Source: a virus (Duplodnaviria > Heunggongvirae > Uroviricota > Caudoviricetes). From it: 64,000 nucleotides of DNA. Numbering within the stretch: the stretch's first letter is position 1; the number at the start of each line of letters is the position of its first letter. Below, piece by piece: positions 14,799 through 50,408 of the stretch. Both the position numbers and the translations under genes were made by a program. The notes beneath the pieces are model-generated. The model searched no databases, was not told the origin of the DNA, and saw nothing but the letters and a program-made list of their open reading frames with translations. Location of the stretch: positions 22,393-86,392 of the IMG/VR virus record IMGVR_UViG_3300006099_000006, one strand, 5' to 3'.

Positions 14799-14950
14799 GA
14801 ACCTGAGAAGGATACGAAATGCGTCTTTAGGCCAACCGAGCGCCCTTGAAAAGGGACTGAGAAGTTACGAAATGCGCCCTAAAGCCAACCGAATGTTCAA
14901 CCTCTCTAATGTTTTCACCTTCCGCAGATTTTGCAAATCGTATTATGGAG

Positions 14951-15023
14951 AGGAAGTTAGCTCAGTTGGTAGAGCGACGGGTGAAATTCCCGTAGGTCAT
15001 CGGTTCGAGTCCGATACAGCCTC
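14951..15023 (+). tRNA. tRNA-like gene with a canonical D-arm and T-arm but a non-canonical anticodon loop and acceptor stem
   Basis: D-arm is TAGCTCAGTTGGTAGAGC and T-arm is ATCGGTTCGAGTCCGAT. The anticodon stem ACGGG/CCCGT carries loop TGAAATT, which lacks U33. The acceptor stem pairs at 5 of 7 positions. It is preceded by the TTTTGCAAATCGTATTATGGAGAGG box. Confidence 0.45.
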
Positions 15024-15050
15024 TCTAAATTTTTTTTGAGAAGGGATATA

Positions 15051-16134: not shown

Positions 16135-16959
16135 GTGAAACCCAAGAAAAGTCTGGTAAACCGGGCGGGAAAAGCTTTGAAACGGGCGTCGCCAACCATA
16201 CTGAGTTGTCTCGGTGCTTTTGGTGTAGTGGCGACTGCGATCCTGGCAATCAAAGCAACGCCCAAAGCCCTTGAGTGCATCGAGGACGCAAAAGAAACAA
16301 AAAGCCCCGGAAATGGCGAAAACCTGACCCGATTGGAGACGATAGCGGCTTGCTGGCAATGCTACATCCCTGCCACAGTCACTGGAATCGCTACAATCGG
16401 GTGTATTTTCGGCGCAAATGTGCTGAATCGCCGTCAGCAGGCCTCTCTCACCAGCGCCTACGCCCTGCTCAACCGAACGTACCAGGACTATCAGAAGTCT
16501 GTGAAAAACGTATTCGGCGAGGAAGGACATCGGCGTGTTTTGGAGGACATGGCCATTGAGCGGGTCTCTGAAAATCACACGATTTATACTCAGGGATCGT
16601 TTGAATGCACCACGCTGGATTTCTGCGTCTCTGAGGAGGAGCATCTCTTCTACGACACCTACTCTGACCGGCAGTTCGCATCAACCATCGGAAAGGTTCT
16701 CCAGGCCGAGTATCATTTGAACAGGATGTTCGCCCTTAACGGTAATGCATCGCTCAATGACTTCTATAAGTACCTGGGCCTCGGCCCTGTTACGGACGGG
16801 GACGACATCGGATGGTGGGTCGACCCCAATGAAGAAATTTACTGGGTCGAGTTCAACCATTCCGTTGCCCACATCGACGATGGCCCCGAGCGGCCTCAGG
16901 TGGACTGCCTTATCATCGAATTTCCTCATCCTCCGTGTCCGGCTCCTCCCGATTGGTAA
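16135..16959 (+). CDS. membrane protein, paralog A, 274 aa (GTG start)
   Basis: RBS AAGGAGG. Basic N-terminus, a TM helix, then conserved ATPKAL and W.CY.PA.VTG motifs shared with 17539 and 19530. Confidence 0.65.
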   Translation: MKPKKSLVNRAGKALKRASPTILSCLGAFGVVATAILAIKATPKALECIEDAKETKSPGNGENLTRLETIAACWQCYIPATVTGIATIGCIFGANVLNRRQQASLTSAYALLNRTYQDYQKSVKNVFGEEGHRRVLEDMAIERVSENHTIYTQGSFECTTLDFCVSEEEHLFYDTYSDRQFASTIGKVLQAEYHLNRMFALNGNASLNDFYKYLGLGPVTDGDDIGWWVDPNEEIYWVEFNHSVAHIDDGPERPQVDCLIIEFPHPPCPAPPDW

Positions 16960-17215: not shown

Positions 17216-17518
17216 ATGAACGAGCGGGCACTTGCGGCAATCGGTCAGGTTCTGGAAGGTTACACGGAGCCTCCCGGACTTGATTGGCCGAAACACGAAA
17301 AAGAAGAGGTCACATTTTCACACTGGGCGCTGGACGAAATCTTGCTCCTGGTGTGGGATCATCCGTGGACACTTGCATCTGAAACCATCGAAGCATTTGC
17401 CATGAAGCTGGAGGTCTTTGCGGCGACGGCCGTATCAGAAGACCAACGGCGGATATTTGCTGTCGCGGCCGAGACAGCTTGGGAGATGCTTGAAGAGGTT
17501 CAGTTGCTGGAATTTTAA
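17216..17518 (+). CDS. hypothetical, 100 aa
   Basis: Internal ATG of track ORF 17114-17518, located after the terminator. Confidence 0.5.
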   Translation: MNERALAAIGQVLEGYTEPPGLDWPKHEKEEVTFSHWALDEILLLVWDHPWTLASETIEAFAMKLEVFAATAVSEDQRRIFAVAAETAWEMLEEVQLLEF

Positions 17519-17538
17519 TGCTTGAAAGGAGAAGCAGC

Positions 17539-18300
17539 GTGAACAAGCAAACCATCGCCAAGGCGCTTAAGGATATTCCGAAGATCTTGAAACGGCATAG
17601 TCCTGAGCTCCTGACAGGCATCGGCATCGCCGGGATGATATTTACGACCATTTCGGCGGTGAAAGCCACCCCCAAAGCGCTTCAGCTCGTGGACGAACGG
17701 GAAATCAAGGAAGGAAAGCGCCTGACAAACTCCGAGATCGTCAAGACTACCTGGAAGTGCTACGTCCCCGCCGCCGTTACCGGGGTATGCTCTGTCGGGT
17801 GTCTGATCGGAGCAAGTTCTGTCAACGCGCGGCGCAATGCCGCCCTTGCCACGGCCTACACCATCTCTGAAACTGCTCTTAAGGAGTATAAAGAGAAAGC
17901 GGTCGAGGTCGTCGGCGAAAAGAAGGAACAGGCGATCCGGGATGCGGTCGCCAAGGAGAAGCTGGAAAAAGCGCATGTTAAAGAGCGGGAGTTCATCATC
18001 ACTGGGAAAGGTGAAACTCCCTGTTTTGACCCGCTTACCAATGCCTGCTTCAAGTCGGATATCGAGACCATCCGAAAAGCGGAAAACATCCTGAACAAAC
18101 GAATGCGGGATGAGATGCAGATCACGGTCAACGACTTCTTACAGGAGCTCGGCCTTGATCCTTGTGATGATGCCATCGGCGACAAGATGGGCTGGGACAT
18201 CGACAAGGGTTACATTGATCTGGACTTCAGCTCGCAGCTGGTCGATGGCATTCCCTATTTGGTCATCGGCCACCACAATCCGCCGAGATACCTCGGCTGA
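17539..18300 (+). CDS. membrane protein, paralog B, 253 aa (GTG start)
   Basis: RBS GAAAGGAGAAG then GTG. Same architecture as 16135 and 19530. Confidence 0.65.
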   Translation: MNKQTIAKALKDIPKILKRHSPELLTGIGIAGMIFTTISAVKATPKALQLVDEREIKEGKRLTNSEIVKTTWKCYVPAAVTGVCSVGCLIGASSVNARRNAALATAYTISETALKEYKEKAVEVVGEKKEQAIRDAVAKEKLEKAHVKEREFIITGKGETPCFDPLTNACFKSDIETIRKAENILNKRMRDEMQITVNDFLQELGLDPCDDAIGDKMGWDIDKGYIDLDFSSQLVDGIPYLVIGHHNPPRYLG

Positions 18301-19381: not shown

Positions 19382-19489
19382 ATGTGCGGATACCACACCT
19401 CGTTTGGATACAAAGGCCTGGTCAATGGCGAGTGGATGCTCTTCACTACCGAGGCCGAGTATCATGAGTATCTGCGTGAACTCAAGTAA
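19382..19489 (+). CDS. mini-protein, 35 aa
   Basis: RBS GAGGAGGG then ATG. Low confidence. Confidence 0.3.
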   Translation: MCGYHTSFGYKGLVNGEWMLFTTEAEYHEYLRELK

Positions 19490-19529
19490 ATCATCCAACA
19501 ACACAATCCGAAAGGAGTATATTTTAACC

Positions 19530-20492
19530 ATGAAAAAGAACGAGCTTATGAAGTCTGCGAGTCGGACTTTCAACAAGATCGGTTTCCAGATCCAGAAGAA
19601 GAGCCCTGAGCTCCTGGTTGCGGCCGGGATCGCCGGTATCGTCGTCAGCACCGTCATGGCGTGTAAGGCCACCATCAAGGCCTGCGAAGTTGCCGAGGAG
19701 GCCAAGGATACCATCGACGAGATCCACGAGATCGAGGAGAAGGGCGTCACCCGGGCCGGCAACACCTACTCCGCCGATGATGCCAAGAAGGATCTCACCA
19801 CCGCCTATCTCCAGACCGGCGTCAAGTACGTCAAGCTGTATGCCCCCGCTATCGTTGTGGGCGCGGCGTCTGTTTCCTGCATCCTGGTAAGCCACAAGAT
19901 GATGAAGCAGCGCATGGCTGCTGTTGCGGCGGCCCTCTCCGCCACGGACAAGGCCTTTAAGGACTACCGCGGCCGCGTTATGGAGCGTTTCGGCGAGCAG
20001 GTCGAGAAGGAGCTCCGCTACAACATCAAGGCCCAAGAGATCGAGCATACCGTTACCACCGAGAAGGGCAAGGAGAAGAAGATCAAAGAGGTGGCCGACG
20101 TGCCTGCGGTTGAGGGCTGGGACCCGTCTCAGTACAGCCCTTATGCGCGGAGATTTGACGAGACCAATCCGGCGTGGAACCGGGACCCCGAAATGACCCG
20201 CTATTATTTAAGGGCCCGCCAGTCCCAGGCCTGCGACATGCTTCGCTCCCGCGGCCATCTGTTCCTCAACGAGGTGTATGATATGCTGGGCTTCCCCCGC
20301 ACAAAGGCCGGTGCTGTTGTTGGGTGGCTGTACGATCCCAAGCGGCCTGAGCTGGGTGACTGCTATGTGGATTTCGGCATGTTCGAGATTCAGCAGGAAG
20401 ACGGTGTCGGCGGCTATGGCCAGTCCTTCATCCTTGACTTCAACGTCGTCGGCGATATTACGAACGACCTCGTCGACCATCAGTATGTTTGA
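19530..20492 (+). CDS. membrane protein, paralog C, 320 aa
   Basis: RBS GAAAGGAG; N-terminal segment SPELLVAAGIAGIVVSTVMACKAT. Confidence 0.65.
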   Translation: MKKNELMKSASRTFNKIGFQIQKKSPELLVAAGIAGIVVSTVMACKATIKACEVAEEAKDTIDEIHEIEEKGVTRAGNTYSADDAKKDLTTAYLQTGVKYVKLYAPAIVVGAASVSCILVSHKMMKQRMAAVAAALSATDKAFKDYRGRVMERFGEQVEKELRYNIKAQEIEHTVTTEKGKEKKIKEVADVPAVEGWDPSQYSPYARRFDETNPAWNRDPEMTRYYLRARQSQACDMLRSRGHLFLNEVYDMLGFPRTKAGAVVGWLYDPKRPELGDCYVDFGMFEIQQEDGVGGYGQSFILDFNVVGDITNDLVDHQYV

Positions 20493-22521: not shown

Positions 22522-22773
22522 ATGGCAAAAAAGAAAAATGTTCCGATGCCCATCAGATCGATGGGTGATCTGGTCGAGTTGGTCAATCACAACTGCGAAG
22601 TTTTTGACCGCCGGACCAAGAAGCTTGCTAAAAGCACCCGGAACCTCAAGGTTCTCTGTGTGGTCACTATCGGCTACGCCGTCTATACGGCAGTCAAGAG
22701 CCGGAATCAGGAGGAACAGATCTATCAGCTTTCTGTGAAGGTGAAGAAGCTGGAACGCGGTGAAGGAGAGTAA
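22522..22773 (+). CDS. small membrane/coiled-coil protein, 83 aa
   Basis: RBS GAAGGGAG. Confidence 0.5.
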   Translation: MAKKKNVPMPIRSMGDLVELVNHNCEVFDRRTKKLAKSTRNLKVLCVVTIGYAVYTAVKSRNQEEQIYQLSVKVKKLERGEGE

Positions 22774-22781
22774 GCGGCTCA

Positions 22782-25700
22782 ATGTTAGACTTCTTGATGA
22801 TTGCAACGCGCAGCGGTAAACGCGGTATCATCGAGATCTATCCCAAGTTTATCATCAAGAAAAGCAACGACCTCATGATAAGAGGCGGCGATTTCTATGC
22901 CATTTGGATTGAGGAACGGGGATTATGGTCGACTGATGAACAGGATGCGGTCGACTTGATCGACCGTGAACTGGACCGTTACGCCGAAGAAAACCGCAAG
23001 CGTTTTGATGACAACATTCGCGTTCTGCACATGTGGGACGCTGAGACCGGCATGATCGACACCTGGCATCGCTACTGCCAAAAGCAGATGAAAGACCAGT
23101 TCCATATGCTCGACGAGAAGTTGATCTTTGCCAACACCAAGACCGGTAAGCGAGACTATGCCAGCAAATCTCTGGATTATCCTTTGGAAAAAGGGGATAC
23201 GCCGGCGTGGGATCGTCTTATCGGTACTTTATATTCTCCCGAGGAGCGTCACAAGATTGAATGGTGCATCGGAGCCATCGTCACCGGAGATTCCAAACGA
23301 CTGCAAAAGTTTATGGTGTTTTACGGAGCGGTTGGGACGGGTAAGAGTACCATCATCAACGTGATACAGCAGCTCTTTGAGGGATACTACACCAGCTTTA
23401 ATGCCAAGGATCTCGGGTCTTCCAGTAATGCATTCGCACTGGAGGCATTCCGTTCCAATCCGTTGGTGGCGATTCAGCATGACGGCGATCTTTCACGCAT
23501 TGAGGATAACACCCGCATCAACAGCTTGGTGTCCCATGAGATGATGACCGTCAACGAGAAGTTCCGATCTGCTTACTCCAACCGGTTTAAGGCGTTCCTT
23601 ATCATGGGCACCAATAAGCCTGTGAAGATTACGGACGCTAAATCCGGTATTATCCGCAGACTGATTGATGTGTCGCCAACTGGCAACAAAGTGCCGCCCA
23701 ACGAGTATCGAACTCTCACCAAGCAAATTCCCTTCGAGCTCGGCGGCATCGCCTATCACTGCCAGGAAGTATATTTGGAAGATCCGGATTACTATGACGA
23801 TTACATCCCCATCTCAATGCTCGGGGCCTCAAACGACTTCTACAACTTTGTCGTGGATTCTTACCATGTGTTCAAGCGGGAGGACGGCGTTTCTCTGAAG
23901 TCTGCTTGGGAGATGTATAAGACCTATTGCGATGACGCGAAGGTTTTGTATCCCTTGTCCAGAATGATATTTAAGGAGGAGTTGCGAAACTACTTCCGGG
24001 AGTATGAGGAACGATTCAACATGGACGATGGAACTCGTGTGAGAAGCTACTATCACGGGTTTCGGACGGAGAAGTTTGAAGAACAGACCCCCGATGAAAA
24101 GGAGGAACCGAAGAAAAAGTCAACCCCGCAGCCTACGATTGCCTTTGCAGAGGGGCAGTCGTCCATTTTTGATGCCCAGTGTGCAAATTGTCCGGCGCAA
24201 TATGCGGGCGAAGAAGGCACACCGCAAAGGAAATGGGAGCGGGTTCGCTCTAAACTCTCCTCGTTGGACACTTCCCGGCTCCATTATGTGAAACTTCCGG
24301 AGAATCACATCGTCATCGACTTTGATATTCCGGATGAACAGGGTAATAAGTCCTTTGAGCGGAATTTGGTCGAGGCCAGTAAGTGGCCAGCGACCTATGC
24401 AGAGGTGAGTAAAAGCGGCTGCGGAATTCATCTGCACTACATCTATTCCGGAGATGCGACGAAGCTCAGCCGGATCTATGATGACCACATCGAGATCAAG
24501 GTCTTCACTGGCAACAGCTCACTGCGCCGGAAGCTTTCAAAATGCAACAACCTACCTATCGCTACGATAAGCTCTGGGTTACCGTTGAAAGGAGAAAACA
24601 GCGTGGTAAACACCAAAGTGGTTCAAAGCGAGAAAGGGCTTAGACTCCAGATCAAACGCAATCTCAACAAGGAGATCCATCCGGCTACTAAGCCCAGCAT
24701 CGACTTTATCCATAAAATTTTGACGGATGCGTATGAAAGCGGCATGACCTACGATGTGACCGACATGCGTAACGCCGTCCTGGCCTTTGCGGCCAACAGT
24801 ACCAACCAAGCGGAATACTGCATCAAGTTGGTGAACAAGATGCCGTTCAAATCCGCCGAAGACGGGTCGGCAGTGAAAAACGACGATGCGAAATTGGTGT
24901 TCTACGACGTGGAGGTATTCCCGAACCTCTTCCTGGTGAACTGGAAGATCGAGGGCCCCAACCAAACCGTCGTGAGGATGATTAACCCGAAGCCCCAGGA
25001 GATCGAGGAGCTGATGAAGTTCCGCCTCGTCGGGTTCAACTGCCGCCGGTACGACAATCATATCCTCTACGCCCGTCTGATGGGCTACACGGAGGAACAG
25101 CTGTACAATCTGTCCCAAAAGATCATCAGCAGTGAGAAGAAGGCCAAAAGTAACAACTGCTTCTTTGGGGAGGCGTATAACGTCTCTTATACGGACGTAT
25201 ACGACTTCTGCTCCAAAAAGCAAAGCCTGAAGAAGTGGGAAATCGAGCTTGGGCTTCACCATCAGGAGTTAGGGCTTCCCTGGGATCAGCCGGTTCCCGA
25301 ACACCTTTGGCAGAAGGTCGCGGAGTATTGCGACAACGATGTTATTGCAACTGAGGCCGTGTTCAATGCCCGCAAGGCCGACTTTGTTGCCCGTGAGATT
25401 CTGGCCGACGTGGCCGGCATGACGGTAAACGACACCACCAACACCTTGACCACCAAAATTATATTTGGCGGGAACAAGAAACCCCAGGATCAGTTCAACT
25501 ACCGCGATATGGGGGATACAACTCAGATTTACGATCCCGACCGGGATCTGCCGTTTGAGATGGGCCCGAAGGAATTCGACGAGTTCACAGCCTTTGACAA
25601 GAAGGGCCGTCCCATCTTCCCTGGGTACAAGTTCGAGAATGGGAAGTCCATCTATCGTGGCGAGGAAGTTGGCGAGGGCGGTTATGTCTACGCCGAGCCG

Positions 25701-26900
25701 GGAATGTACGGGAACATTGCTCTGCTGGACATCGCCAGTATGCATCCGTCGAGCATCATCGCGGAGATCCTGTTTGGACCCGAATACACGAAACGGTTCC
25801 AGGAGATCCGTGACGCTCGTGTGGCCATCAAACACAAAGACTTTGAGAAGGCCAAGAAGATGCTGAATGGCGCGTTGGCAAAGTACCTAACCGATGAGGG
25901 CGCTGCTGCCGACTTGGCACAGGCGCTGAAGATCGCCATCAACTCTGTGTATGGTCTGACTTCGGCCGGCTTTGACAACCCCTTCCGGGACAATCGGAAC
26001 AAAGACAATATTGTCGCCAAGCGCGGAGCCCTGTTCATGGTCAACCTCAAACACGAGGTTCAGAAACGGGGCTTTACTGTTGCCCATATCAAGACCGACT
26101 CCATCAAGATTCCCGATGCCACGCCGGAGATCATTAAGTTCGTCATGGACTACGGCGAGAAGTACGGCTACACCTTTGAACATGAGGCCACCTATGACCG
26201 GATGTGCCTTGTGAACAACGCGGTCTACATCGCCAAGTACAAGGACAGCAAGCACGCCGGTGAATGGACTGCCACGGGCACGCAGTTCCAGATCCCGTAT
26301 GTGTTCAAGAAACTGTTCAGCCACGAGGAGATCACTTTCGAGGACATGTGCGAGACCAAGTCTGTAACCAGTGCTCTTTATCTGGACATGAATGAAAATC
26401 TGCCCAATGTTTCCGAATACGAAAAAGAGTATAAGGAACTCGCCGGATATTTGTCCACAACTTCTGGAGATGGTGGTCAATATGTCAGATTCGATGAGCT
26501 TGAGAAGCTTATTGGGCGGGGGCATAACTATGTCTTCGTGGGAAAGGTTGGTCAGTTCTGTCCGATGAAACCGGGCCACAATGGCGGTCTGCTCTTAAGA
26601 GAGGTAACTGACAAGAAAACCGGCGCAAAGAGCTATGCCGCGGCCACGGGGGCCAAAGGGTATCGTTGGCTGGAATCCGAGATGGTCAAGCATCTGGAGA
26701 AGGAGGATGGCATCGACCGGAGCTACTACGACGCTATGGTTGATGAGGCGGTCCATGATATTTCTCAGTTCGGAGATTTTGAATGGTTCGTATCTGACGA
26801 TCCCTACGTCCAGCCCAACCCCTCGAACGATACCCCGCCTTGGGAGACGCCCGGTGAGCCTTGGCAGGGGGAAGCGGCTGTGGCTTTCGATGCGAGGTGA
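22782..26900 (+). CDS. tripartite replicase, 1372 aa: N-terminal SF3/P4-D5-type NTPase, central AEP PrimPol, C-terminal family-B DNA polymerase with 3'-5' exonuclease
   Basis: Walker A motif GAVGTGKST. PrimPol motifs VIDFDIPDE and SKSGCGIHLHYIY. Exo I FYDVEVFPN, Exo II GFNCRRYD, Exo III YCDNDV. PolB motif A DIASMHPS, motif B KIAINSVYG, motif C KTDS. Confidence 0.85.
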   Translation: MLDFLMIATRSGKRGIIEIYPKFIIKKSNDLMIRGGDFYAIWIEERGLWSTDEQDAVDLIDRELDRYAEENRKRFDDNIRVLHMWDAETGMIDTWHRYCQKQMKDQFHMLDEKLIFANTKTGKRDYASKSLDYPLEKGDTPAWDRLIGTLYSPEERHKIEWCIGAIVTGDSKRLQKFMVFYGAVGTGKSTIINVIQQLFEGYYTSFNAKDLGSSSNAFALEAFRSNPLVAIQHDGDLSRIEDNTRINSLVSHEMMTVNEKFRSAYSNRFKAFLIMGTNKPVKITDAKSGIIRRLIDVSPTGNKVPPNEYRTLTKQIPFELGGIAYHCQEVYLEDPDYYDDYIPISMLGASNDFYNFVVDSYHVFKREDGVSLKSAWEMYKTYCDDAKVLYPLSRMIFKEELRNYFREYEERFNMDDGTRVRSYYHGFRTEKFEEQTPDEKEEPKKKSTPQPTIAFAEGQSSIFDAQCANCPAQYAGEEGTPQRKWERVRSKLSSLDTSRLHYVKLPENHIVIDFDIPDEQGNKSFERNLVEASKWPATYAEVSKSGCGIHLHYIYSGDATKLSRIYDDHIEIKVFTGNSSLRRKLSKCNNLPIATISSGLPLKGENSVVNTKVVQSEKGLRLQIKRNLNKEIHPATKPSIDFIHKILTDAYESGMTYDVTDMRNAVLAFAANSTNQAEYCIKLVNKMPFKSAEDGSAVKNDDAKLVFYDVEVFPNLFLVNWKIEGPNQTVVRMINPKPQEIEELMKFRLVGFNCRRYDNHILYARLMGYTEEQLYNLSQKIISSEKKAKSNNCFFGEAYNVSYTDVYDFCSKKQSLKKWEIELGLHHQELGLPWDQPVPEHLWQKVAEYCDNDVIATEAVFNARKADFVAREILADVAGMTVNDTTNTLTTKIIFGGNKKPQDQFNYRDMGDTTQIYDPDRDLPFEMGPKEFDEFTAFDKKGRPIFPGYKFENGKSIYRGEEVGEGGYVYAEPGMYGNIALLDIASMHPSSIIAEILFGPEYTKRFQEIRDARVAIKHKDFEKAKKMLNGALAKYLTDEGAAADLAQALKIAINSVYGLTSAGFDNPFRDNRNKDNIVAKRGALFMVNLKHEVQKRGFTVAHIKTDSIKIPDATPEIIKFVMDYGEKYGYTFEHEATYDRMCLVNNAVYIAKYKDSKHAGEWTATGTQFQIPYVFKKLFSHEEITFEDMCETKSVTSALYLDMNENLPNVSEYEKEYKELAGYLSTTSGDGGQYVRFDELEKLIGRGHNYVFVGKVGQFCPMKPGHNGGLLLREVTDKKTGAKSYAAATGAKGYRWLESEMVKHLEKEDGIDRSYYDAMVDEAVHDISQFGDFEWFVSDDPYVQPNPSNDTPPWETPGEPWQGEAAVAFDAR

Positions 26901-27581: not shown

Positions 27582-28073
27582 ATGGCTAACCCCAGGGTCA
27601 CTGAAAACCTCAAAATCGAAAACGCTCACATCCTGTTCCGGAACTTCTCCGGCCGGGAGAGCAAGTACAACCGCGCCGGTCAGCGCAACTTCTGCGTCTA
27701 CATCGACGATCCGGCGGATGCACAGCGGCTCATCGATGACGGCTGGAACGTCCGTGTTCGGCCGCCGCGTGAGGAAGGGGACGAGCCGCGCTACTACATC
27801 CAGGTGGCCGTCAGCTTCAGCAACATCCCGCCCTCTGTCTATATGCTCACCAAGCGGAAGAGGGTGCAGCTGGACGAGGAGTCCATCGACGTCCTGGATA
27901 TCGCCGAGATCCGCAGCATCGATCTAACTATCCGTCCCTATAACTGGGTTATCCAGGAGGGTACCAAGAACGAGAAGAGCGGCGTCAAGGCCTACCTGCG
28001 TTCCATGTACGTCGTCATCGACGAGGATGAGTTCGCTGAGAAGTACGCTGGCGACGAGTATCCCCAGGAGTAA
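27582..28073 (+). CDS. hypothetical, 163 aa
   Basis: RBS GAAAGGAG. Confidence 0.6.
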   Translation: MANPRVTENLKIENAHILFRNFSGRESKYNRAGQRNFCVYIDDPADAQRLIDDGWNVRVRPPREEGDEPRYYIQVAVSFSNIPPSVYMLTKRKRVQLDEESIDVLDIAEIRSIDLTIRPYNWVIQEGTKNEKSGVKAYLRSMYVVIDEDEFAEKYAGDEYPQE

Positions 28074-28148
28074 GGCATGTGCAGGGGCGCTGGTTAGGAG
28101 GTGACTGGCGCTCCTGTTCTTTGCTTTGATATTTGAAAGGGGGAGGAT

Positions 28149-28520
28149 TTGGTGTCTATGGACTATTCCTACTACAACCAAGCCTTCGTTGATGGCTTGA
28201 AAGCATTTTTGGATTACACCGCTCCCGATTCATTACGCAATAATGTAAAAGAGGGGCTCGTTGTACGACGGCGTTTGCAAAAGCAAGATTTTGAAAAGCG
28301 CTGCATTCAAAGATGGGCTATATCTCAGTTGGCCGAGTCAATTATCAACAATCCGAGTGATCCCATTGAGGACACGACCTACAAACTGGCATTAAAGCTG
28401 CTAAGTTTTGCAGTTGACTCTACTAATCCAAATGTAAGGAACGTGTTTTCAATTGCTGCGGCTTTTATTGAAGACGAGGTCATAAATCCCTTCCGAGAAA
28501 AAGCCGGAATATACCCATAA
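28149..28520 (+). CDS. hypothetical, 123 aa (GTG start)
   Basis: RBS GGGGGAGGA. Confidence 0.5.
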   Translation: MVSMDYSYYNQAFVDGLKAFLDYTAPDSLRNNVKEGLVVRRRLQKQDFEKRCIQRWAISQLAESIINNPSDPIEDTTYKLALKLLSFAVDSTNPNVRNVFSIAAAFIEDEVINPFREKAGIYP

Positions 28521-28543
28521 CTGTTTTCGCAAAGGAGAAAAAG

Positions 28544-28864
28544 ATGCAAAATAAGAAATCTCCGCGAAATTCTGGCAAAGTAATCCTGAAAAAAGAGGAG
28601 TGCTATTGCAACCTTGCCGAGTTATATGACGCCATTGCGATAAAATTGGGCCACAACCCCGCATTGGTTGCTTATGACTGCCGCAAGATATGCGTGACAA
28701 CTCCTGTGATGGAGGAAGTATTTTCGTATTACAAAGCCAGATACCGCGTAACAAGGGCAGCATTTAATCAGCTTTGGCTCAATTTAGGCCCTAAAGCTAA
28801 TCTCGTCGGGAGTGACTATATCGCTCAAATTGAAAGCGGATTCTTTTTGGAGGTCAGGCCATGA
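28544..28864 (+). CDS. hypothetical, 106 aa
   Basis: RBS AAAGGAGAAAAAG. Confidence 0.55.
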   Translation: MQNKKSPRNSGKVILKKEECYCNLAELYDAIAIKLGHNPALVAYDCRKICVTTPVMEEVFSYYKARYRVTRAAFNQLWLNLGPKANLVGSDYIAQIESGFFLEVRP

Positions 28865-29334
28865 AAAAGTCTTTCTGGCGGCATTTTCGACTTCCAAGAA
28901 AACGTAAGCCAAAACCCGTAGAGTTGGTAGTTTACAAGCCGCCCCAAAAGCATATGACCGAGCCTGACCGTTGGATACCGCCGTTTGCGACCAAGAAAGA
29001 AGAACCCCTCAAGGTTGACAAACAGGATTTGATTGTTGTAAATGAATCGCCTGAGTTCGATCTTGGCAGAGTTACGGCGACAGTTGGTGTCCTGTTGCAG
29101 GCGAGAATGGACTACAACTTTCAAGCTTTCGTTGATGAATGCCTCGAACGCTACAAACACTCTGATTGGGGCGGTGTAAACGAAAAGGAAAGACGATTGA
29201 ACGACCTCAGGCTCTCAGCTCAGACAGGCGCCATTTATGGCATTTATACCTATCTTGGTTCCGGGGAACAAATCTGGATCGCCACTGATTTAGATCAAGG
29301 CATCACAAAGATTTGTCTGTCCGAAGAACGCTGA
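28861..29334 (+). CDS. hypothetical, 157 aa (basic N-terminus)
   Basis: ATGA overlap with the previous gene. Confidence 0.55.
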   Translation: MKKSFWRHFRLPRKRKPKPVELVVYKPPQKHMTEPDRWIPPFATKKEEPLKVDKQDLIVVNESPEFDLGRVTATVGVLLQARMDYNFQAFVDECLERYKHSDWGGVNEKERRLNDLRLSAQTGAIYGIYTYLGSGEQIWIATDLDQGITKICLSEER

Positions 29335-29347
29335 AAGAGGTGGTGTC

Positions 29348-30370
29348 ATGAGTTCATTCTGGCAAAAATCGCCTAAGAAAAGCAAGAAGAAAAAGCGAAA
29401 ACCAAAGGCTGCACCGCAAGAAAAAGCTTTACAGACGATTCCTAAAGCAAAGCCCACGCCTTGGGTTCCTCCGCATCCCATAATACCAAGCACCCCAACC
29501 ATTGAGGGTAGATTCATCGCAAAGCCCTCAGTAACCCATCAAGTGCCGACCATCCCGGAAGTCAAAGAGAAGATCCCGATTACAACTTCGCATCCTAAGC
29601 AGAAAAACATTCGTCGCAAAAGCGAACAAGTACGGAAAGATTTCCTGAAAACGTTTGAAGCTTTAACCCATCGTTGGCGCTCCTGGGATATTTGGACCGA
29701 TTTCGTCACCCTTGTCGCTTGCACTATCTCAAACTCGGTGGACAAGCTCCACTTTGAAGGGCGAGAAAAGACCTACCTTCGCATCATCAATAAGTACAAC
29801 AAGGAGGAGCGAGAGCTTTTTCCAAAGCTATTTGCCTATGTGGTCCTCGCATTGGAGGAGAATCCTGAGCAGGACTTCCTTGGTGATATTTACACGGAGC
29901 TTGGACTGAACAGTAAAGAACACAAGCAAATATTTACACCCTATCACATTTGTCAGTTGATGTGCGAGGTAACCTTTGGGAACCTTGCAGAAGAGGTTGA
30001 TAAAAAGGGCGTCGTTGAAATTCACGACTGCTGCTGTGGAGCTGGAGCGACCCTGATTGCAGCGGCAAACGTGGCGAAGTACAAGCTCACAAAAGCCGGC
30101 CTCAACTATCAGAATCATATTTTAATCACAGGCCAGGATATCGATTATCTCGTAACTATGATGTGCTACATTCAGCTCTCATTGCTCGGGATGGCTGGAT
30201 ATTTCAAAGTCGGTAATGCCCTAACCGATCCGATGACGGATAATGATAGTTTGGAAAACTATTGGTTCACACCGATGTACTTCTTCCCTGTTTGGCATTA
30301 TCGAAGAATCTGGCACAGTATCGGCGAACTCTTGGGAGGCGAACCAAATGCAGAAGTTCACGAAAATTGA
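29348..30370 (+). CDS. truncated N6-adenine methyltransferase-like protein, 340 aa. It has the FTP and motif-I regions but no NPP[FY] catalytic motif.
   Basis: QIFTPYHICQLMCEV is motif X. HDCCCGAGATL is motif I. GQDIDYLVTMMCYIQLSLLG...GNALTDP matches N6_Mtase up to the point where NPPF is expected. Lys-rich N-terminus. Confidence 0.6.
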   Translation: MSSFWQKSPKKSKKKKRKPKAAPQEKALQTIPKAKPTPWVPPHPIIPSTPTIEGRFIAKPSVTHQVPTIPEVKEKIPITTSHPKQKNIRRKSEQVRKDFLKTFEALTHRWRSWDIWTDFVTLVACTISNSVDKLHFEGREKTYLRIINKYNKEERELFPKLFAYVVLALEENPEQDFLGDIYTELGLNSKEHKQIFTPYHICQLMCEVTFGNLAEEVDKKGVVEIHDCCCGAGATLIAAANVAKYKLTKAGLNYQNHILITGQDIDYLVTMMCYIQLSLLGMAGYFKVGNALTDPMTDNDSLENYWFTPMYFFPVWHYRRIWHSIGELLGGEPNAEVHEN

Positions 30371-30551
30371 AATTTCCTGGATCATCATTGAGCTCGACAA
30401 GGCGGCTGCCGAATTGAACCGCCTCGCAAATGAGCCGAACGACAGAGATTTCTCCAAAATGTATCGGCTCCGTTCTGAGCAATATGCCGACATTTCTCGG
30501 CGTCTTCGCTTGGCTCTCAAAAAGGGCAGTAAGCGAATCGAAATCAAGTAA
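30348..30551 (+). CDS. hypothetical, 67 aa
   Basis: RBS GGGAGG; overlaps the 3' end of 29348-30370. Confidence 0.45.
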   Translation: MQKFTKIEISWIIIELDKAAAELNRLANEPNDRDFSKMYRLRSEQYADISRRLRLALKKGSKRIEIK

Positions 30552-30611
30552 GTCACAGAATCGAGCAGCTAATCATGGCTGCTTATATTTTTGAAAGGAG
30601 AAAAATGAACA

Positions 30612-31126
30612 ATGAGCACTAATCATAAGCCTTCCCTTGAGGTCATCGAGCAGGGGTTGAAGGACGAGAGCTGGCGTGTGCGGGCTGCGGCCATGAACGC
30701 CTGCCAGGGCCGGGAGGTGCCCTTGAGGTCATCGAGCGGTGGTTGAAGGACGAGAGCTGGCGTGTGCGGGCTGCGGCCATGAACGCCTGCAAAGCCAACA
30801 ACATCCCCGTTCCGGTTATCCGGACGATTGAGCCGCCCGAACTGGTCTATAAGAAGTGCGTAGGCGGCATCATCGTTGTCGCTTCCATCCCCAAGGACGC
30901 ACAGATCCGCGGCAACTTCAACCACAAGTGCCGCGCCAGCAAGGCCGTTATCAAGGAGATCATCGGCGACCTCTGTGGGGAGCAGGTCGGTATTTCCAAG
31001 TATGACCTGAGAACCCTCTACTACGCCGGCGACGAGGTTGAGATCGACAACTTCGACTACAGCAATGAGGAGTGCTCCACCGGCTTCCACTTCTTCTGCA
31101 CAATCGAAGAAGCCCGGCGATACTAA
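30612..31126 (+). pseudogene. HEAT/PBS-lyase-repeat protein gene disrupted by an 86-bp tandem duplication
   Basis: ATG at 30612 in frame 0 reaches a stop at 30744-30746. The downstream part, 30743-31126, is in frame 2. Removing one 86-bp unit gives a continuous ORF of about 142 aa. Confidence 0.5.
30634..30805 (+). repeat. 2 x 86-bp tandem direct repeat
   Basis: Seen directly. Units 30634-30719 and 30720-30805 share a 71-bp core with 2 mismatches. Confidence 0.75.
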
Positions 31127-31144
31127 GCACTGGAGGGGATTAAT

Positions 31145-31596
31145 ATTTTAAGTCAGGCACTATTCTCTACGGGAAAGAATGATTGGGCAACGCCACAGGA
31201 GCTCTTTGATGAGCTTGATGCTGAGTTCCATTTCACGCTCGATCCCTGCGCTACTCCGGAAACGGCTAAGTGCGCTAAATTCTACACGGAAGAAGACAAC
31301 GGACTTGCCCAGGATTGGACTGGAGAGACGGTGTTCTGCAATCCTCCCTACTCTGACCAGCAACAGACCGAATGGGTCAAAAAGTGCTATGAACATGGAG
31401 TTCGGGGGGGGGGTAGCAGTTATGCTGATTCCGGCCAGAACCGATACGAAGCGTTTCCACGAGTACATTTATGGGAACGCGGAAATACGGTTTATCAAAG
31501 GCCGGTTGAAATTTGGCGGGTGTGAAAACTCTGCACCCTTCCCCTCCATGATTGTTGTATTCGGAAAAGAACCTGCTGAAAGGAGGCCGCGGCCAA
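31145..31596 (+). CDS. dam: phage Dam-type N6-adenine DNA methyltransferase (PF05869-like), frameshifted at a G10 tract. The C-terminal half continues in frame into the helicase ORF.
   Basis: N-terminal half in frame 2 reads WATPQELFDELDAEFHFTLDPCA...FCNPPYS. C-terminal half in frame 0 reads VAVMLIPARTDTKRFHEY...IRFIKGRLKF...APFPSMIVVF. The junction is G10 at 31404-31413. The start codon is uncertain; no ATG is available in frame 2. Confidence 0.6.
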
Positions 31597-32837
31597 TGGG
31601 ACGCATAAATCTCCGTGATTATCAGCTCGATGCTATCAAGCGGATGAAAAATGGCTGCATCCTATGTGGCGGCGTCGGAAGCGGCAAATCACGCACATCT
31701 CTCGCATACTACTACAAACTACAAGGCGGCGATCTTCTCACTCCAGACGAGGTCGCCATGAAGAACCCGAAAGACCTATACATCATTACTACCGCCCGGA
31801 AACGGGATACCTGCGAGTGGGAGGGGGAACTGGCTCCGTTCCTCCTCTCTACTCATAAGGACAGCAACTACTACAAGAATACTGTGGTTGTGGATTCCTG
31901 GAACAACATCGGAAAGTATACGGAAGTTAAAAACGCCTTCTTTATATTTGACGAGCAGCGGGTGGTTGGCTATGGAGCCTGGACAAAAGCATTTCTCAAA
32001 ATCGCCGAGGCAAATAATTGGATTTTGCTGTCGGCAACACCTGGAGACACATGGCAGGACTACATTCCTGTCTTCATTGCCAATGGGTTTTACCGCAACA
32101 AGACAGACTTTGTTGACCAGCATGTGAACTATGACTGGCGGGCAAAGTATCCCAAAATTGACAGCTATCGCAACACAGGCCGCCTGATCCGGTTACGCAA
32201 CAACATTCTTGTGACCATGGACTTCGAGCGGCATACGGTATCTCGCCATGAGGACATCCCGGTTCCGTATGATATTTCCAAGTATAAGGACATTATGCGA
32301 AATCGCTGGAATCCATGGGAGGACAAGCCGATCGAAACGGCTTCGGAACTGTGTCTGGCTTTGCGTCGGACGGTTAATTCAGATGTATCCAGGGAAGTCG
32401 CAGTGCTGGAGCTTATGGAAGACCATCCCAAGGCCATCATCTTCTACAGCTTTGACTATGAGCTGGATATTCTTCGCTCTCTCGGATATCCGGAGGGAAC
32501 AGAAATTGCAGAATGGAATGGCCATAAGCACCAAGAGATTCCGACAGGGGACAAGTGGGTCTATCTGGTTCAGTATACGGCCGGTTGCGAAGGCTGGAAC
32601 TGCATCACCACGGACACTATTATATTCTTCTCCCAGCAGTATTCCTACAAGGTGGCGACGCAGGCGGCCGGACGGATTGACCGGCTTACCACGCCGTACA
32701 AGGATCTGCACTACTACCATCTGAAGAGCTTCTCCGGGATTGACCTCGCTATCAGTAAGGCTATCAAGCAGAAGAAGAATTTCAACGAGGGCAAGTTTGT
32801 TGGCTGGGCCACCAAGCCAATGCCGAAAGCCGCATAA
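31596..32837 (+). CDS. SNF2/DEAD-like superfamily-2 helicase, 413 aa
   Basis: RBS GAAAGGAGG. Q-motif LRDYQLDAI. Walker A CGGVGSGKS. Motif II FDEQ. Motif III LSATP. Motif VI QAAGRIDR. Confidence 0.75.
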   Translation: MGRINLRDYQLDAIKRMKNGCILCGGVGSGKSRTSLAYYYKLQGGDLLTPDEVAMKNPKDLYIITTARKRDTCEWEGELAPFLLSTHKDSNYYKNTVVVDSWNNIGKYTEVKNAFFIFDEQRVVGYGAWTKAFLKIAEANNWILLSATPGDTWQDYIPVFIANGFYRNKTDFVDQHVNYDWRAKYPKIDSYRNTGRLIRLRNNILVTMDFERHTVSRHEDIPVPYDISKYKDIMRNRWNPWEDKPIETASELCLALRRTVNSDVSREVAVLELMEDHPKAIIFYSFDYELDILRSLGYPEGTEIAEWNGHKHQEIPTGDKWVYLVQYTAGCEGWNCITTDTIIFFSQQYSYKVATQAAGRIDRLTTPYKDLHYYHLKSFSGIDLAISKAIKQKKNFNEGKFVGWATKPMPKAA

Positions 32838-32911
32838 TTTGCAAGTCCTATTACGGAGGAGATGCTACATAGCGTCTTCTTTTATATTTTTATGAAAGGA
32901 GGCGTACTGCC

Positions 32912-34213
32912 TTGCAACAAAAGTCTGACCTCGAAGTTAAAGCATTCTTTGAGACTTTGTCCAACACTGCGTCCATCAAGGCAAAAAAGCAGCTCCTCGC
33001 TGAGAAGCGAGATGACCGAAACGTCAAGAAGTTTCTGGACTATCTGCTGAACCCCTTCTTCGTCACTGGGATTTCTGAGAAGAAAATCGGCAGGCCGGTG
33101 GTGAAAGAGCCAACTATCTCCTTCAGCTCATTCCATGACCTGATGCCCTACATCCGGGAAAATCACACCGGTGCGGACGAGGTGTTGGCAAATGTTCAGA
33201 CTTTTCTGGTTGGAGTGGACGACATTGCTTTGCGGCTCTTTTACATCGGCATCATCACAAAATCCATCCGTATTGGCTGCGATGTCAAGACTGTAAATGA
33301 GGGGCTCGGCTTTGAGCTCATTCCTCAGTGGGAAGTACAGCAGGCCTATCAGATTGGCAAACTGAAAATGAACGAGAACGAGTGGTTCAGTTTAAGCCAA
33401 AAGCTTAATGGCGTTCGCGGCACTTACTTCGATGGGAAACTCATCAGCCGGCAGGGCAAAGAGTTTAATGGTTTGGAGCACATCTTGGCCGACATTCAAA
33501 AACTTATCCCGGACTGTGAGGACTGGGTGCTTGATGGGGAGCTGATCCGAAAGAACATCGACCATGTTTCTGACAATGAGAACTTCCGGCTGACGGCCGG
33601 GATCATCAATCAAGATGATGGCGATAAGAGTTTGATCCAAATGGTGATCTTTGATATTTTGCCGAAGACCGAATTCCTTTGCGGCGAAAGCAAGCTGAGA
33701 TATCGGGATCGCCTGGAGCACCTGAGAAAGCTGGAACGGCTAATCCAGAGGTTGAGTCTGTCAAGCCTTTCGATAGTTGACATCCTTTACACTGGCAGGG
33801 ACGTGTCCATGATTAAGCCCTGCCTGAATCGGATGGTCTGTGAAGGCAAGGAGGGCCTCATACTGAACCGTAACTCCAAATACTTCAGGAGGCGGCATAA
33901 CGGAATCCTGAAAGTGAAGCAGTTCTACACGGTGGACTTGGAGATTGTAGATCTCGAAGAAGGAACCGGACGGCTGAGCGGAACCTTGGGAGCGTTTGTT
34001 GTTCGTTACAAAGGGAATTTCCTTCGGGTTGGCTCCGGGATGACGGACGAACAGCGCAACACATTCTGGAACGAGGGGATCGCTTTGATCGGCCGGGTTA
34101 TTGAGGTCAAGTACAAGGAGGAGAGCTATGATAGGCAGACGGGGCTTCCCAGCCTTCAGTTCCCGATTTTCATCCAACTTCGTGAGCTCGGTAAGCAGGA
34201 AAGCTATGACTGA
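32912..34213 (+). CDS. ATP-dependent DNA ligase-like protein, 433 aa (TTG start)
   Basis: Motif I KLNGVRG. Motif III VLDGELI. Motif IIIa MVIFDIL. Motif V EGLILNR. An OB-fold C-terminus is present. Confidence 0.7.
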   Translation: MQQKSDLEVKAFFETLSNTASIKAKKQLLAEKRDDRNVKKFLDYLLNPFFVTGISEKKIGRPVVKEPTISFSSFHDLMPYIRENHTGADEVLANVQTFLVGVDDIALRLFYIGIITKSIRIGCDVKTVNEGLGFELIPQWEVQQAYQIGKLKMNENEWFSLSQKLNGVRGTYFDGKLISRQGKEFNGLEHILADIQKLIPDCEDWVLDGELIRKNIDHVSDNENFRLTAGIINQDDGDKSLIQMVIFDILPKTEFLCGESKLRYRDRLEHLRKLERLIQRLSLSSLSIVDILYTGRDVSMIKPCLNRMVCEGKEGLILNRNSKYFRRRHNGILKVKQFYTVDLEIVDLEEGTGRLSGTLGAFVVRYKGNFLRVGSGMTDEQRNTFWNEGIALIGRVIEVKYKEESYDRQTGLPSLQFPIFIQLRELGKQESYD

Positions 34214-49780: not shown

Positions 49781-50311
49781 ATGAAGAAAGCTATGAAGAT
49801 CGCGGCCCTGTTCCTGTGCGCTGTCATGATGACCTGCTTGATGGCGGGATGCGACGAGACTACTCGGATGAAGGAAGAGAATTACACCGAAAACACCAAG
49901 ACGCAGATATTGGATATGTATGGGCTCCCTGAAGTGACCAATTTCTTTGAGTATTCCCAGCTCAAGGAAATTTACGAACTTCGGGATAACCCCAACTTGA
50001 TCTGCTACTGGTACACAAAGAATGATATGTCCGGCAAGTGGATTTACCAGGGCACCTGTGTTGGATATGGTATCCCCTATGGGGCGAGCATCACAAACCC
50101 TGAGCAGCGTGTATATAGCGGTCTTACGCTGCCTCTTGCGGAACCGAACGGGCTGTACACAAACGGCCTTTCCACTTCCGCAACCTGGATTCTGACTACG
50201 GACGCTAAGGGCAACATTACTCCTACTTACGTTGAAAGTGAAATTACTATCAGTCAGACCAAGATGGAGGCCCGGCTCTGCGAGGACTGGTCGATTCCGT
50301 CCGACTATTAA
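49781..50311 (+). CDS. lipoprotein, 176 aa
   Basis: RBS ACGGAGG; lipobox LMAGC. Confidence 0.65.
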   Translation: MKKAMKIAALFLCAVMMTCLMAGCDETTRMKEENYTENTKTQILDMYGLPEVTNFFEYSQLKEIYELRDNPNLICYWYTKNDMSGKWIYQGTCVGYGIPYGASITNPEQRVYSGLTLPLAEPNGLYTNGLSTSATWILTTDAKGNITPTYVESEITISQTKMEARLCEDWSIPSDY

Positions 50312-50408
50312 CGCATACAGAAGCTTACGGGTGGCGGTGTTCCTACACAGGGATGCCGCCGCTCTTGTTTTTATTCCAAAATTATATTTTTCAAAGAGGT
50401 ATTGCTAC

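What the first reader, a model, noticed from the sequence alone, without database searches (positions are those of the whole stretch)
22782..26900. A single 1372-aa polypeptide combines an SF3 helicase, an AEP PrimPol and a family-B DNA polymerase with proofreading exonuclease, in an unusual N-to-C domain order
Walker A (GAVGTGKST) and Walker B (VAIQHDGD) of a D5/P4-type NTPase lie near residue 190. The PrimPol motifs I-III (VIDFDIPDE, SKSGCGIHLHYIY, IEIKVF) lie around residue 520. Exo I-III and PolB motifs A, B and C lie in the C-terminal 600 residues. Known primase-helicases put the AEP domain N-terminal to the SF3 helicase, and fusion to a replicative PolB is rare. This looks like an all-in-one replisome protein.
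Basis: partly seen in the sequence, partly recalled or inferred. Interest (0 to 1): 0.7.

Follow-up and report, generated by a model that had tools for sequence, protein, structure and literature searches.

The report
Known phage four-in-one DNA replicase
This 1372-residue phage protein really does join a helicase, a primase and a proofreading DNA polymerase in one chain, but the design was described in 2016 and a homologue was tested in the lab in 2025, so this is one more member of a known family.

Summary

The domain order is an N-terminal D5-like SF3 helicase, then an AEP primase domain with a four-helix accessory domain (aHD), then a C-terminal family-B polymerase with a 3'-5' exonuclease.

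It is not new. The protein matches phrog_4210 over its whole length. 252 deposited phage genomes encode a homologue covering at least 80% of the protein, usually annotated "DNA primase/polymerase". It is collinear with GP55 of Lactococcus phage 1706 at 40-43% identity.

Kazlauskas et al. 2016 described GP55 as an SF3 helicase-AEP-PolB fusion. Zhang et al. 2025 showed it has helicase, RNA primase, polymerase and exonuclease activities. All seven residues whose mutation reduced or abolished a GP55 activity are conserved here: K188, D515, Y657, F669, D709, E711 and D983.

The gene lies in the replication module of a temperate phage, probably of Oscillospiraceae.

Verdict: a real, correctly read, new member of a known kind. 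Interest is low.

The parts
22782..26900 (+). Complete gene for the GP55-type four-in-one replicase (1372 aa plus stop)
   Evidence: Single ORF. Whole-length match to phrog_4210 at E=0. Collinear with GP55 of phage 1706 and nine other phage homologues.
22782..24119 (+). N-terminal region plus D5-like SF3 helicase (aa 1-446). Walker A is aa 182-190 (K188), Walker B aa 228-236 (D234), sensor-1 N278, and the arginine-finger pair R292/R293.
   Evidence: Pfam DUF5906 covers aa 180-293 at 3.4e-12. PHROG primase-helicases cover aa 121-442. The family profile hits 7OLA at 6e-9 and 6K9C at 1.5e-4. The residues are invariant in A1. K188 corresponds to GP55 K189. The boundary follows GP55 deltaN(1-439).
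24120..24266 (+). Variable, charged linker and lead-in to the primase domain (aa 447-495). It includes the conserved PAQYA strand.
   Evidence: Length and sequence vary in alignment A1, and actinophage homologues carry a ~25-aa insertion here. The model places PAQYA in a strand.
24267..24581 (+). AEP (PriS-like, PrimPol-type) catalytic domain, about aa 496-600. Motif I is D513/D515, motif II S545..H550/H552, motif III E571/K573.
24627..24851 (+). aHD, a four-helix primase accessory domain (helices aa 617-628, 636-652, 660-671 and 677-686). It contains Y657 and F669.
24852..25421 (+). PolB 3'-5' exonuclease subdomain (about aa 691-880). Exo I is D709/E711, Exo II N753..D758, Exo III Y849..D853.
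   Evidence: phrog_1252 'DNA polymerase' covers aa 694-1328 at 2.5e-48. Block-mean pLDDT is mostly 80-96 in this part of the model. The residues are invariant. D709 and E711 correspond to GP55 D712 and E714, whose mutation abolishes exonuclease activity.
25422..26897 (+). PolB polymerase subdomains (aa 881-1372). Motif A contains D983, motif B K1050..Y1057/G1058, motif C K1104-T-D1106-S. Variable loops lie at about aa 912-945 and 1208-1250, followed by a variable C-terminal tail.
   Evidence: The family profile hits E. coli Pol II at 3e-8, Pol alpha at 4e-5 and archaeal PolB. The phmmer alignment with Pol II spans motifs A to C. The top 20 Foldseek hits are all PolB, although the model is poor (pLDDT 57). 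D983 corresponds to GP55 D949, whose D949A mutant lacks polymerase activity.

Best explanation
The ORF encodes an orthologue of GP55 of Lactococcus phage 1706. GP55 is a single-chain 'four-in-one' replicase of a family of tailed phages, and this copy belongs to a temperate phage, probably of Oscillospiraceae.

Proposed mechanism, inferred by homology to GP55:
- The N-terminal D5-like SF3 NTPase unwinds duplex DNA. It also mediates self-association; GP55 is a dimer in solution.
- The central AEP domain, together with the four-helix aHD that follows it, makes short RNA primers on the exposed single strand.
- The C-terminal family-B polymerase extends those primers with dNTPs. Its 3'-5' exonuclease proofreads, and the helicase supports strand displacement.
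- In GP55 primer hand-off can occur in trans, so one subunit may prime while the other extends.

The neighbouring phage genes would supply the remaining replication functions: an ssDNA-binding protein (27582-28073), an SF2 helicase (31179-32837) and an ATP-dependent DNA ligase (32912-34213).

Shown here: the ORF, its domain folds and families, conservation of every tested catalytic residue, and the gene context. Inferred: all enzymatic activities of this particular protein, its NTP preference, its primer recognition sequence and its oligomeric state.
For: - Whole-length match to phrog_4210 at E=0.
- 252 phage genomes encode a collinear homologue covering at least 80% of the protein, including GP55 at 40% identity over aa 19-1332 and FP_oengus 'helicase/polymerase' at 60%.
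- An 11-sequence alignment has 53% mean column identity, with all catalytic motifs invariant.
- The seven GP55 residues whose mutation reduced or abolished a specific activity map to identical residues here: K188, D515, Y657, F669, D709, E711 and D983.
- The AEP+aHD module occurs almost only in this architecture. Of 141 new 50%-identity representatives, 109 are at least 1200 aa long with the module at about residues 445-720.
- The context is a phage replication module with synteny to FP_oengus.
- Literature: PMC4889955 and PMC12205980.
Against: - No experiment exists on this protein. It is only 40-43% identical to the characterised GP55, so quantitative properties such as UTP/dTTP dependence, the 5'-CCAAC-3' primer site and the dimeric state may differ.
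- Pfam recognises neither the AEP nor the PolB region.
- The PolB structural model is poor (mean pLDDT 57), so PolB rests mainly on sequence-profile evidence and motifs.
- Motif C has Lys in place of the first Asp of the canonical DTDS. GP55 carries the same substitution and is active.
Confidence: 0.92

Rival explanations
1. The long ORF is an artefact: a frameshift, a misassembly or a read-through that fuses separate helicase-primase and polymerase genes.
For: Some database relatives appear as 3-4 adjacent short ORFs (P0197 in L011 and P0194 in L012). In Bifidobacterium phage BitterVaud1 the gene is really split before motif A by a 213-aa ORF.
Against: - The window ORF is continuous, with a Shine-Dalgarno sequence and tight coupling to both neighbours.
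- 252 phage genomes from several bacterial phyla carry the same fusion in one ORF.
- 109 of 141 diverse representatives are at least 1200 aa long.
- GP55 was expressed and purified as a 1317-aa protein with all four activities.
- In L011 and L012 neighbouring genes are fragmented as well, which points to indel errors in those assemblies.
Confidence: 0.01
2. The fusion is real, but one or more modules are inactive relics. For example, the AEP domain could be a structural or origin-binding remnant, with priming left to the host or to another phage protein.
For: Pfam and PDB sequence profiles do not detect the AEP domain. There is no PriL, helix-bundle or zinc-finger accessory domain typical of AEP primases. 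Motif C of the polymerase is non-canonical (KTDS).
Against: - The AEP residues D513, D515, H550 and H552, and the aHD residues Y657 and F669, are invariant or nearly invariant across sequences as low as 40% identical. That indicates purifying selection on catalysis.
- In GP55 the PriS-like domain (D509A mutant) was found crucial for RNA primer synthesis, and Y655 and F667 mutants abolish it. GP55 has the same KTDS motif and is an efficient polymerase.
- PHROG and Pfam scans of about 30 ORFs in the window detected no other primase.
Confidence: 0.04
3. The protein is not the main genome replicase. It could be a specialised initiation or repair enzyme, for example a PrimPol-type translesion or repriming enzyme, or a phi29-style protein-primed polymerase.
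For: Many PrimPols act in damage tolerance. The GP55 authors compare the PolB motifs with phi29 polymerase. The phage also encodes a separate SF2 helicase.
Against: - No other DNA polymerase was found among the window ORFs scanned.
- The gene sits in the core of the replication module next to the SSB.
- With GP55, no significant primer products were observed with dNTPs alone, and deleting PolB removes all DNA polymerase activity, so the AEP domain acts as a dedicated RNA primase.
- The strongest PolB profile hits are RNA/DNA-primed enzymes (Pol II, Pol alpha, archaeal PolB), not protein-primed ones.
- Kazlauskas 2016 classed it as the replicative set.
Confidence: 0.03

Closest known systems
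GP55 (ORF55) of Lactococcus phage 1706, the 'four-in-one replicase' (Zhang et al. 2025, NAR 53:gkaf542, PMC12205980; first noted by Kazlauskas et al. 2016, PMC4889955)
   Same: It has the same four modules in the same order: SF3 helicase, PriS-like AEP, aHD, then PolB with exonuclease. The two proteins are collinear over about 96% of their length. All seven functionally tested residues are identical, and both carry the KTDS motif C.
   Different: - Identity is only 40-43%.
- The window protein is 55 aa longer.
- It has different variable loops at about aa 912-945 and 1208-1250 and a different C-terminal tail.
- The host lineage differs: a gut Oscillospiraceae-type temperate phage rather than a lactococcal phage.
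- No biochemistry exists for this copy.
Faecalibacterium phage FP_oengus 'helicase/polymerase' (AUV56521, MG711463), and the actinophage 'DNA primase/polymerase' genes of Arthrobacter, Gordonia, Streptomyces, Rhodococcus ReqiPepy6 gp072 and others
   Same: FP_oengus is the closest deposited phage homologue, at 60-64% identity over the full length. It has the same gene order downstream (small ORF, then SSB) and is also a temperate phage with an integrase. The actinophage homologues are 45-51% identical by tblastn.
   Different: There is no nucleotide-level match (megablast finds nothing), so the window is a different phage. None of these homologues has been characterised experimentally.
AEP-SF3 primase-helicases and PrimPols: pRN1 ORF904, phage NrS-1 primase-polymerase, vaccinia D5 / mpox E5, and the SaPI5 primase-helicase
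   Same: They share the same two enzyme superfamilies. The AEP domain is structurally closest to NrS-1 and pRN1. The helicase is closest by sequence to the SaPI5 and NrS-1 D5-like helicases.
   Different: - The order is reversed: here the helicase comes first and the AEP second. Kazlauskas 2016 reports the primase N-terminal in 94% of fusions.
- There is no helix-bundle, PriL or zinc-finger accessory domain; the aHD takes that place.
- A separate PolB, not the AEP domain itself, performs DNA elongation.
Pas55 of Actinoplanes phage phiAsp2 (SF3 helicase-DnaG primase-PolA fusion), and T7 gp4 with gp5
   Same: The logic is the same: helicase, primase and polymerase are coupled physically. Pas55 is the only other helicase-primase-polymerase single-chain case listed by Kazlauskas 2016.
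   Different: The primase (DnaG/TOPRIM) and the polymerase (family A) are non-homologous to those here.

Membership tests
GP55-type four-in-one replicase family (phrog_4210) | Whole-length, collinear homology to GP55 of phage 1706 | tested here: met
   phrog_4210 covers aa 2-1345 at E=0. tblastn to phage 1706 covers aa 19-1332 at 40.4%. The MAFFT alignment gives 43% identity with a single collinear block structure.
GP55-type four-in-one replicase family (phrog_4210) | Conservation of the residues shown by mutagenesis to be needed for each activity (GP55 K189, D509, Y655, F667, D712, E714, D949) | tested here: met
   They map to K188, D515, Y657, F669, D709, E711 and D983. All are identical to GP55, and all are invariant or nearly invariant across 11 sequences.
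GP55-type four-in-one replicase family (phrog_4210) | aHD (two pairs of alpha-helices) between the AEP and PolB domains, in place of a PriL or helix-bundle domain | tested here: met
GP55-type four-in-one replicase family (phrog_4210) | Helicase, RNA primase, DNA polymerase and 3'-5' exonuclease activities in one polypeptide | not testable with these tools
   Shown only for GP55. Inferred here from homology.
SF3 (D5/P4-like) helicase | AAA+-type NTPase core with Walker A, Walker B, motif C (sensor-1 Asn) and an arginine finger, plus profile similarity to D5-like helicases | tested here: met
   Pfam DUF5906 at 3.4e-12. 7OLA at 6e-9 and 6K9C at 1.5e-4. G182..K188, D234, N278 and R292/R293 are invariant.
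SF3 (D5/P4-like) helicase | Hexameric ring assembly | not testable with these tools
   GP55 behaves as a dimer by SEC-MALS. The state on DNA is unknown.
Archaeo-eukaryotic primase (AEP) superfamily, PrimPol clade | AEP catalytic fold | tested here: met
Archaeo-eukaryotic primase (AEP) superfamily, PrimPol clade | Catalytic motifs I (DxD), II (sxH) and III | tested here: met
   D513-F-D515, S545..H550-L-H552 and E571-I-K573 are invariant across the family. Motif III is assigned by position, not verified by structural superposition.
Family B DNA polymerase | Exo I-III motifs plus polymerase motifs A (DxxSLYPS), B (KxxxNSxYG) and C (DTDS), with profile similarity to PolB | tested here: met
   - Exo I D709/E711, Exo II N753/D758 and Exo III Y849/D853.
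- Motif A D983-IASMHPS and motif B K1050-IAINSVYG.
- Pol II at 3e-8, and Pol alpha and archaeal PolB at 1e-4 to 1e-5.
- Deviation: motif C is K1104-T-D1106-S. The first Asp is Lys in 109 of 112 motif-C matches among family representatives. The aspartate aligned with the second Asp of DTDS is retained.
Family B DNA polymerase | PolB three-dimensional fold | tested here: inconclusive
   The model is poor (mean pLDDT 57) and only the exonuclease part is confident. The top 20 Foldseek hits are all PolBs, but TM-scores are about 0.25 and E-values 5e-4 to 0.2. This is consistent but not decisive on its own.

The most novel reading that the evidence does not exclude
The most novel reading my evidence leaves open concerns a hallmark the published work does not discuss. 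Throughout this family the first Asp of PolB motif C is replaced by Lys (H-x-K-T-D-S, 109 of 112 motif-C matches). This could mean an altered active-site or metal arrangement, linked to the hand-off of RNA primers from the fused AEP domain. This gut-phage clade might also differ from GP55 in nucleotide fuel, primer site or oligomeric state. Neither point would change what the protein is.
Probability: 0.15. Interest if true: 0.35.

Novelty: new member of a known kind. Interest (0 to 1): 0.15.

Why it matters
The family itself is interesting. It is a minimal replisome in one polypeptide, with a reversed helicase-primase order and a new primase accessory domain, and it has biotechnological potential for primer-free DNA amplification.

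That significance already belongs to the published work of 2016 and 2025. This window adds a diverged gut-phage member (40-43% identical to the characterised enzyme). Relatives at 72-97% identity fill the top of both hit lists from public metagenomes, mostly ENA and Logan assemblies.

It could serve as a comparative subject for questions such as which features of GP55 are general: UTP/dTTP use, dimerisation and primer site. It does not open a new question by itself.

Tried and rejected
- Megablast of the gene against 50,697 phage records found nothing. The phage is new at the nucleotide level, and only protein-level searches were informative.
- Pfam recognised only DUF5906. A single-sequence phmmer search of the PDB gave only a marginal Pol II hit at E=0.04. 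A family profile was needed to reach 3e-8, and even that did not detect the AEP domain, so I used structure prediction.
- Two word-index homologue searches returned only close relatives at 72-97% identity. A third, using a distant-member profile of the central region, returned only proteins shorter than 500 aa. The two I inspected on long contigs are pieces of the same ~4-kb gene broken by frameshifts in error-prone assemblies, not stand-alone primases. I therefore rejected the idea of a free-standing AEP+aHD protein.
I use it only as weak corroboration.
- I looked for lineage-specific functional insertions. The loops at about aa 912-945 and 1208-1250 and the C-terminal tail are variable even among close relatives (consensus of A4) and have low pLDDT. 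I did not treat them as features.
- I considered an artefactual fusion, inactive relic domains, and a repair or protein-primed role. All are rejected under the rival explanations.
- An Rfam scan for a self-splicing intron at the split site of the BitterVaud1 homologue found nothing.
Full report
**1. Observation**

Window 22782-26900 (+) is one open reading frame of 1372 codons with no internal stop. An AGGAG lies 13 nt upstream of the ATG. The upstream ORF ends at 22773 and the next gene begins at ATG 26908, eight bases after the stop codon.

- Walker A, aa 182-190
- Walker B, aa 228-236
- AEP motifs I-III, aa 511-519, 543-555 and 570-575
- Exo I-III, aa 707-715, 751-762 and 848-858
- PolB motifs A, B and C, aa 981-992, 1050-1059 and 1101-1109

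The only correction is that motif C reads K-T-D-S, not D-T-D-S.

**2. What it is: sequence evidence**

Pfam alone is nearly blind to this protein. It reports only DUF5906, a D5-like NTPase family, at aa 180-293 (3.4e-12).

PHROGs gives much more:
- phrog_4210 ('DNA polymerase', 1304 positions) matches aa 2-1345 at E=0.
- phrog_1252 ('DNA polymerase') matches aa 694-1328 at 2.5e-48.
- Several D5-type 'DNA primase' PHROGs match aa 121-442 through their C-terminal helicase portions, at about 1e-22.

tblastn against 50,697 phage records finds 283 records, and in 252 of them the match covers at least 80% of the protein. The best is Faecalibacterium phage FP_oengus 'helicase/polymerase' at 60%. Arthrobacter, Gordonia, Streptomyces, Rhodococcus, Microbacterium and Curtobacterium phages follow at 45-51%, mostly annotated 'DNA primase/polymerase'. 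Lactococcus phages 1706, P162 and P078 match at 37-40%.

The fusion is therefore a recurrent, conserved gene and not an accident of this sequence.

**3. Literature**

Kazlauskas, Krupovic and Venclovas (2016, PMC4889955) singled out gp55 of Lactococcus phage 1706 as one of only two known cases of helicase, primase and polymerase fused within one polypeptide. [quoted passage not shown] They also documented that the primase is N-terminal to the helicase in 94% of primase-helicase fusions.

Zhang, Lu, Zhu and Huang (2025, PMC12205980) purified GP55 (1317 aa) and reported the following:
- UTP/dTTP-dependent helicase activity, lost in K189A.
[quoted passage not shown] Mutations at Y655 and F667 abolish priming.
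- Family-B DNA polymerase activity, lost in D949A.
- 3'-5' exonuclease activity, lost in D712A/E714A.
- Dimerisation through the helicase domain.
- Primer hand-off in trans.
- De novo replication of ssM13 DNA.

They report more than 1000 homologues, mostly from human-associated phages.

**4. Membership in that family**

I aligned the window protein with GP55 and nine other phage homologues. Mean column identity is 53%, and the window protein is 43% identical to GP55.

A script mapped the seven mutated GP55 residues to K188, D515, Y657, F669, D709, E711 and D983. All are identical to GP55. All are invariant across the alignment except the Y657 and F669 columns, which are nearly invariant.

The helicase sensor-1 residue (N278) and the arginine pair (R292/R293) are also invariant.

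**5. Independent checks of each domain**

*Helicase and polymerase.* A profile of the alignment, searched against PDB sequences, hits:
- the SaPI5 primase-helicase 7OLA at 6e-9, over profile positions 154-437
- the NrS-1 helicase domain 6K9C at 1.5e-4
- E. coli Pol II at 3e-8
- Pol alpha at 4e-5
- many archaeal PolBs

*AEP domain.* Nothing matched the central region by sequence, so I modelled aa 452-700 with an 83-sequence alignment. The model has mean pLDDT 92.8.

Foldseek gives ten hits with E at or below 3e-4. All are pRN1 ORF904 or NrS-1, and the next hit is at E=0.2.

*aHD.* The C-terminal four helices (aa 617-686) match only generic helical repeats. This agrees with the authors' claim that the aHD is not a known primase accessory domain.

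*PolB fold.* The model of the PolB half was poor (mean pLDDT 57), because only a shallow alignment could be used. Its 20 best Foldseek hits are nevertheless all family-B polymerases. I treat this as weak corroboration only.

**6. Distribution of the central module**

An exhaustive phmmer search of 1.84 billion representatives with aa 452-700 found 474 clusters at E of 1e-3 or better, and 375 at 1e-10 or better.

Of 141 newly returned representatives, 109 are at least 1200 aa long and carry the module at about residues 445-720. The remainder look like truncated gene calls.

Two short hits on long contigs proved to be pieces of the same ~4-kb gene, broken into 3-4 ORFs in assemblies where neighbouring genes are fragmented too. 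The AEP+aHD module is therefore essentially confined to this fusion.

**7. Context**

The window is a temperate-phage genome segment. Its genes include:
- integrase, 5138-6373 (-)
- conserved phage proteins of unknown function upstream of the replicase
- a PF24083 ssDNA-binding protein, 27582-28073
- an N6-methylase-like protein, 29348-30370
- an SF2 helicase, 31179-32837
- an ATP-dependent DNA ligase, 32912-34213
- an NrdD ribonucleotide reductase, 50232-52643

The order replicase, small ORF, SSB matches FP_oengus.

The exact protein is present only in JGI/IMG metagenome data. Relatives at 85-97% identity fill the listed metagenome hits, and a 91% relative is annotated in an Oscillospiraceae genome.

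**8. Mechanism**

The best-supported explanation (confidence about 0.9) is that this is a GP55-type single-chain replisome.
- The SF3 helicase unwinds the duplex.
- The AEP domain with the aHD makes RNA primers.
- The PolB extends the primers and proofreads.
- The phage SSB and ligase complete lagging-strand synthesis.

The folds, the motifs and the gene context are shown here. The activities are inferred from a 40-43% identical enzyme that has been characterised.

**9. Rivals**

- An artefactual fusion is excluded by the continuous ORF, by the hundreds of intact homologues, and by the purified full-length GP55.
- Relic or inactive domains are unlikely, because every catalytic residue is invariant.
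- A repair-only or protein-primed role is unlikely. No other polymerase or primase was found among the window ORFs scanned. In GP55 the AEP domain makes RNA primers only, and PolB provides all DNA synthesis.

**10. Novelty and score**

The architecture was published in 2016 and the mechanism in 2025, so this is a new, diverged member of a known kind. Interest is 0.15.

The only unreported detail I found is the family-wide Lys at the first position of PolB motif C: H-x-K-T-D-S in 109 of 112 motif-C matches. The 2025 paper does not mention it.

Noticed in passing
window 26082-26108 (aa 1101-1109) and the family as a whole: PolB motif C reads H-[IVC]-K-T-D-S instead of the canonical (Y)xDTDS. The first Asp is Lys in 109 of 112 motif-C matches among family representatives, and Ser in the other 3. 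GP55 has the same motif (HVKTDS) and is active. A word search of the 2025 paper's main text finds no mention of DTD or KTD.
   Followed up: partly
window 14950-15025 (+): A phage-encoded tRNA is called tRNA-Phe with anticodon AAA by ARAGORN, and Rfam scores it as tRNA at 47.5 bits. The anticodon loop reads T-G-A-A-A-T-T, so position 33 would be G rather than the near-universal U, and the anticodon is not the usual GAA. The decoding role is unclear.
   Followed up: partly
window 60984-63695 (+): A 903-aa ORF matches phrog_4291 over its whole length. That family is annotated 'RNA-dependent RNA polymerase', so the ORF may be a phage-encoded polymerase. It has a C-terminal helix-turn-helix resembling sigma-70 region 4 at aa 880-903.
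   Followed up: partly
window 16135-16959, 17518-18300 and 19404-20492 (+): Three paralogous genes of phrog_2152 lie in tandem upstream of the replicase. Pfam DUF6353 hits genes at the corresponding position in relatives. The function is unknown, and the arrangement is conserved in related contigs L011 and L012.
   Followed up: no
L013 501-5131 (Bifidobacterium phage BitterVaud1, MT006236): The homologous replicase gene is naturally split just before PolB motif A. A 959-aa ORF corresponds to window aa 2-956. A 213-aa ORF with no Pfam match follows. A 368-aa ORF in another frame then corresponds to window aa 974-1347. Rfam detects no intron at the junction. This may be a mobile-element insertion that divides the palm domain.
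   Followed up: partly
L011 5228-8750 and L012 5066-9125: In two metagenome or genome assemblies the same ~4-kb replicase gene is called as 3-4 short ORFs, and neighbouring genes are fragmented as well. This pattern fits indel errors in the assemblies. Such fragments appear in protein databases as apparent stand-alone primase or DUF5906 proteins.
   Followed up: yes
window 27582-34213 and 50232-52643 (+); 5138-6373 (-): The rest of the replication and nucleotide module comprises a PF24083 ssDNA-binding protein, an N6-methylase-like protein, an SF2 helicase whose N-terminus has a methylase-like segment, an ATP-dependent DNA ligase, a metal-dependent phosphohydrolase-like protein, an ADP-ribosylglycohydrolase and an NrdD anaerobic ribonucleotide reductase. 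A tyrosine-type integrase marks the phage as temperate.
   Followed up: partly
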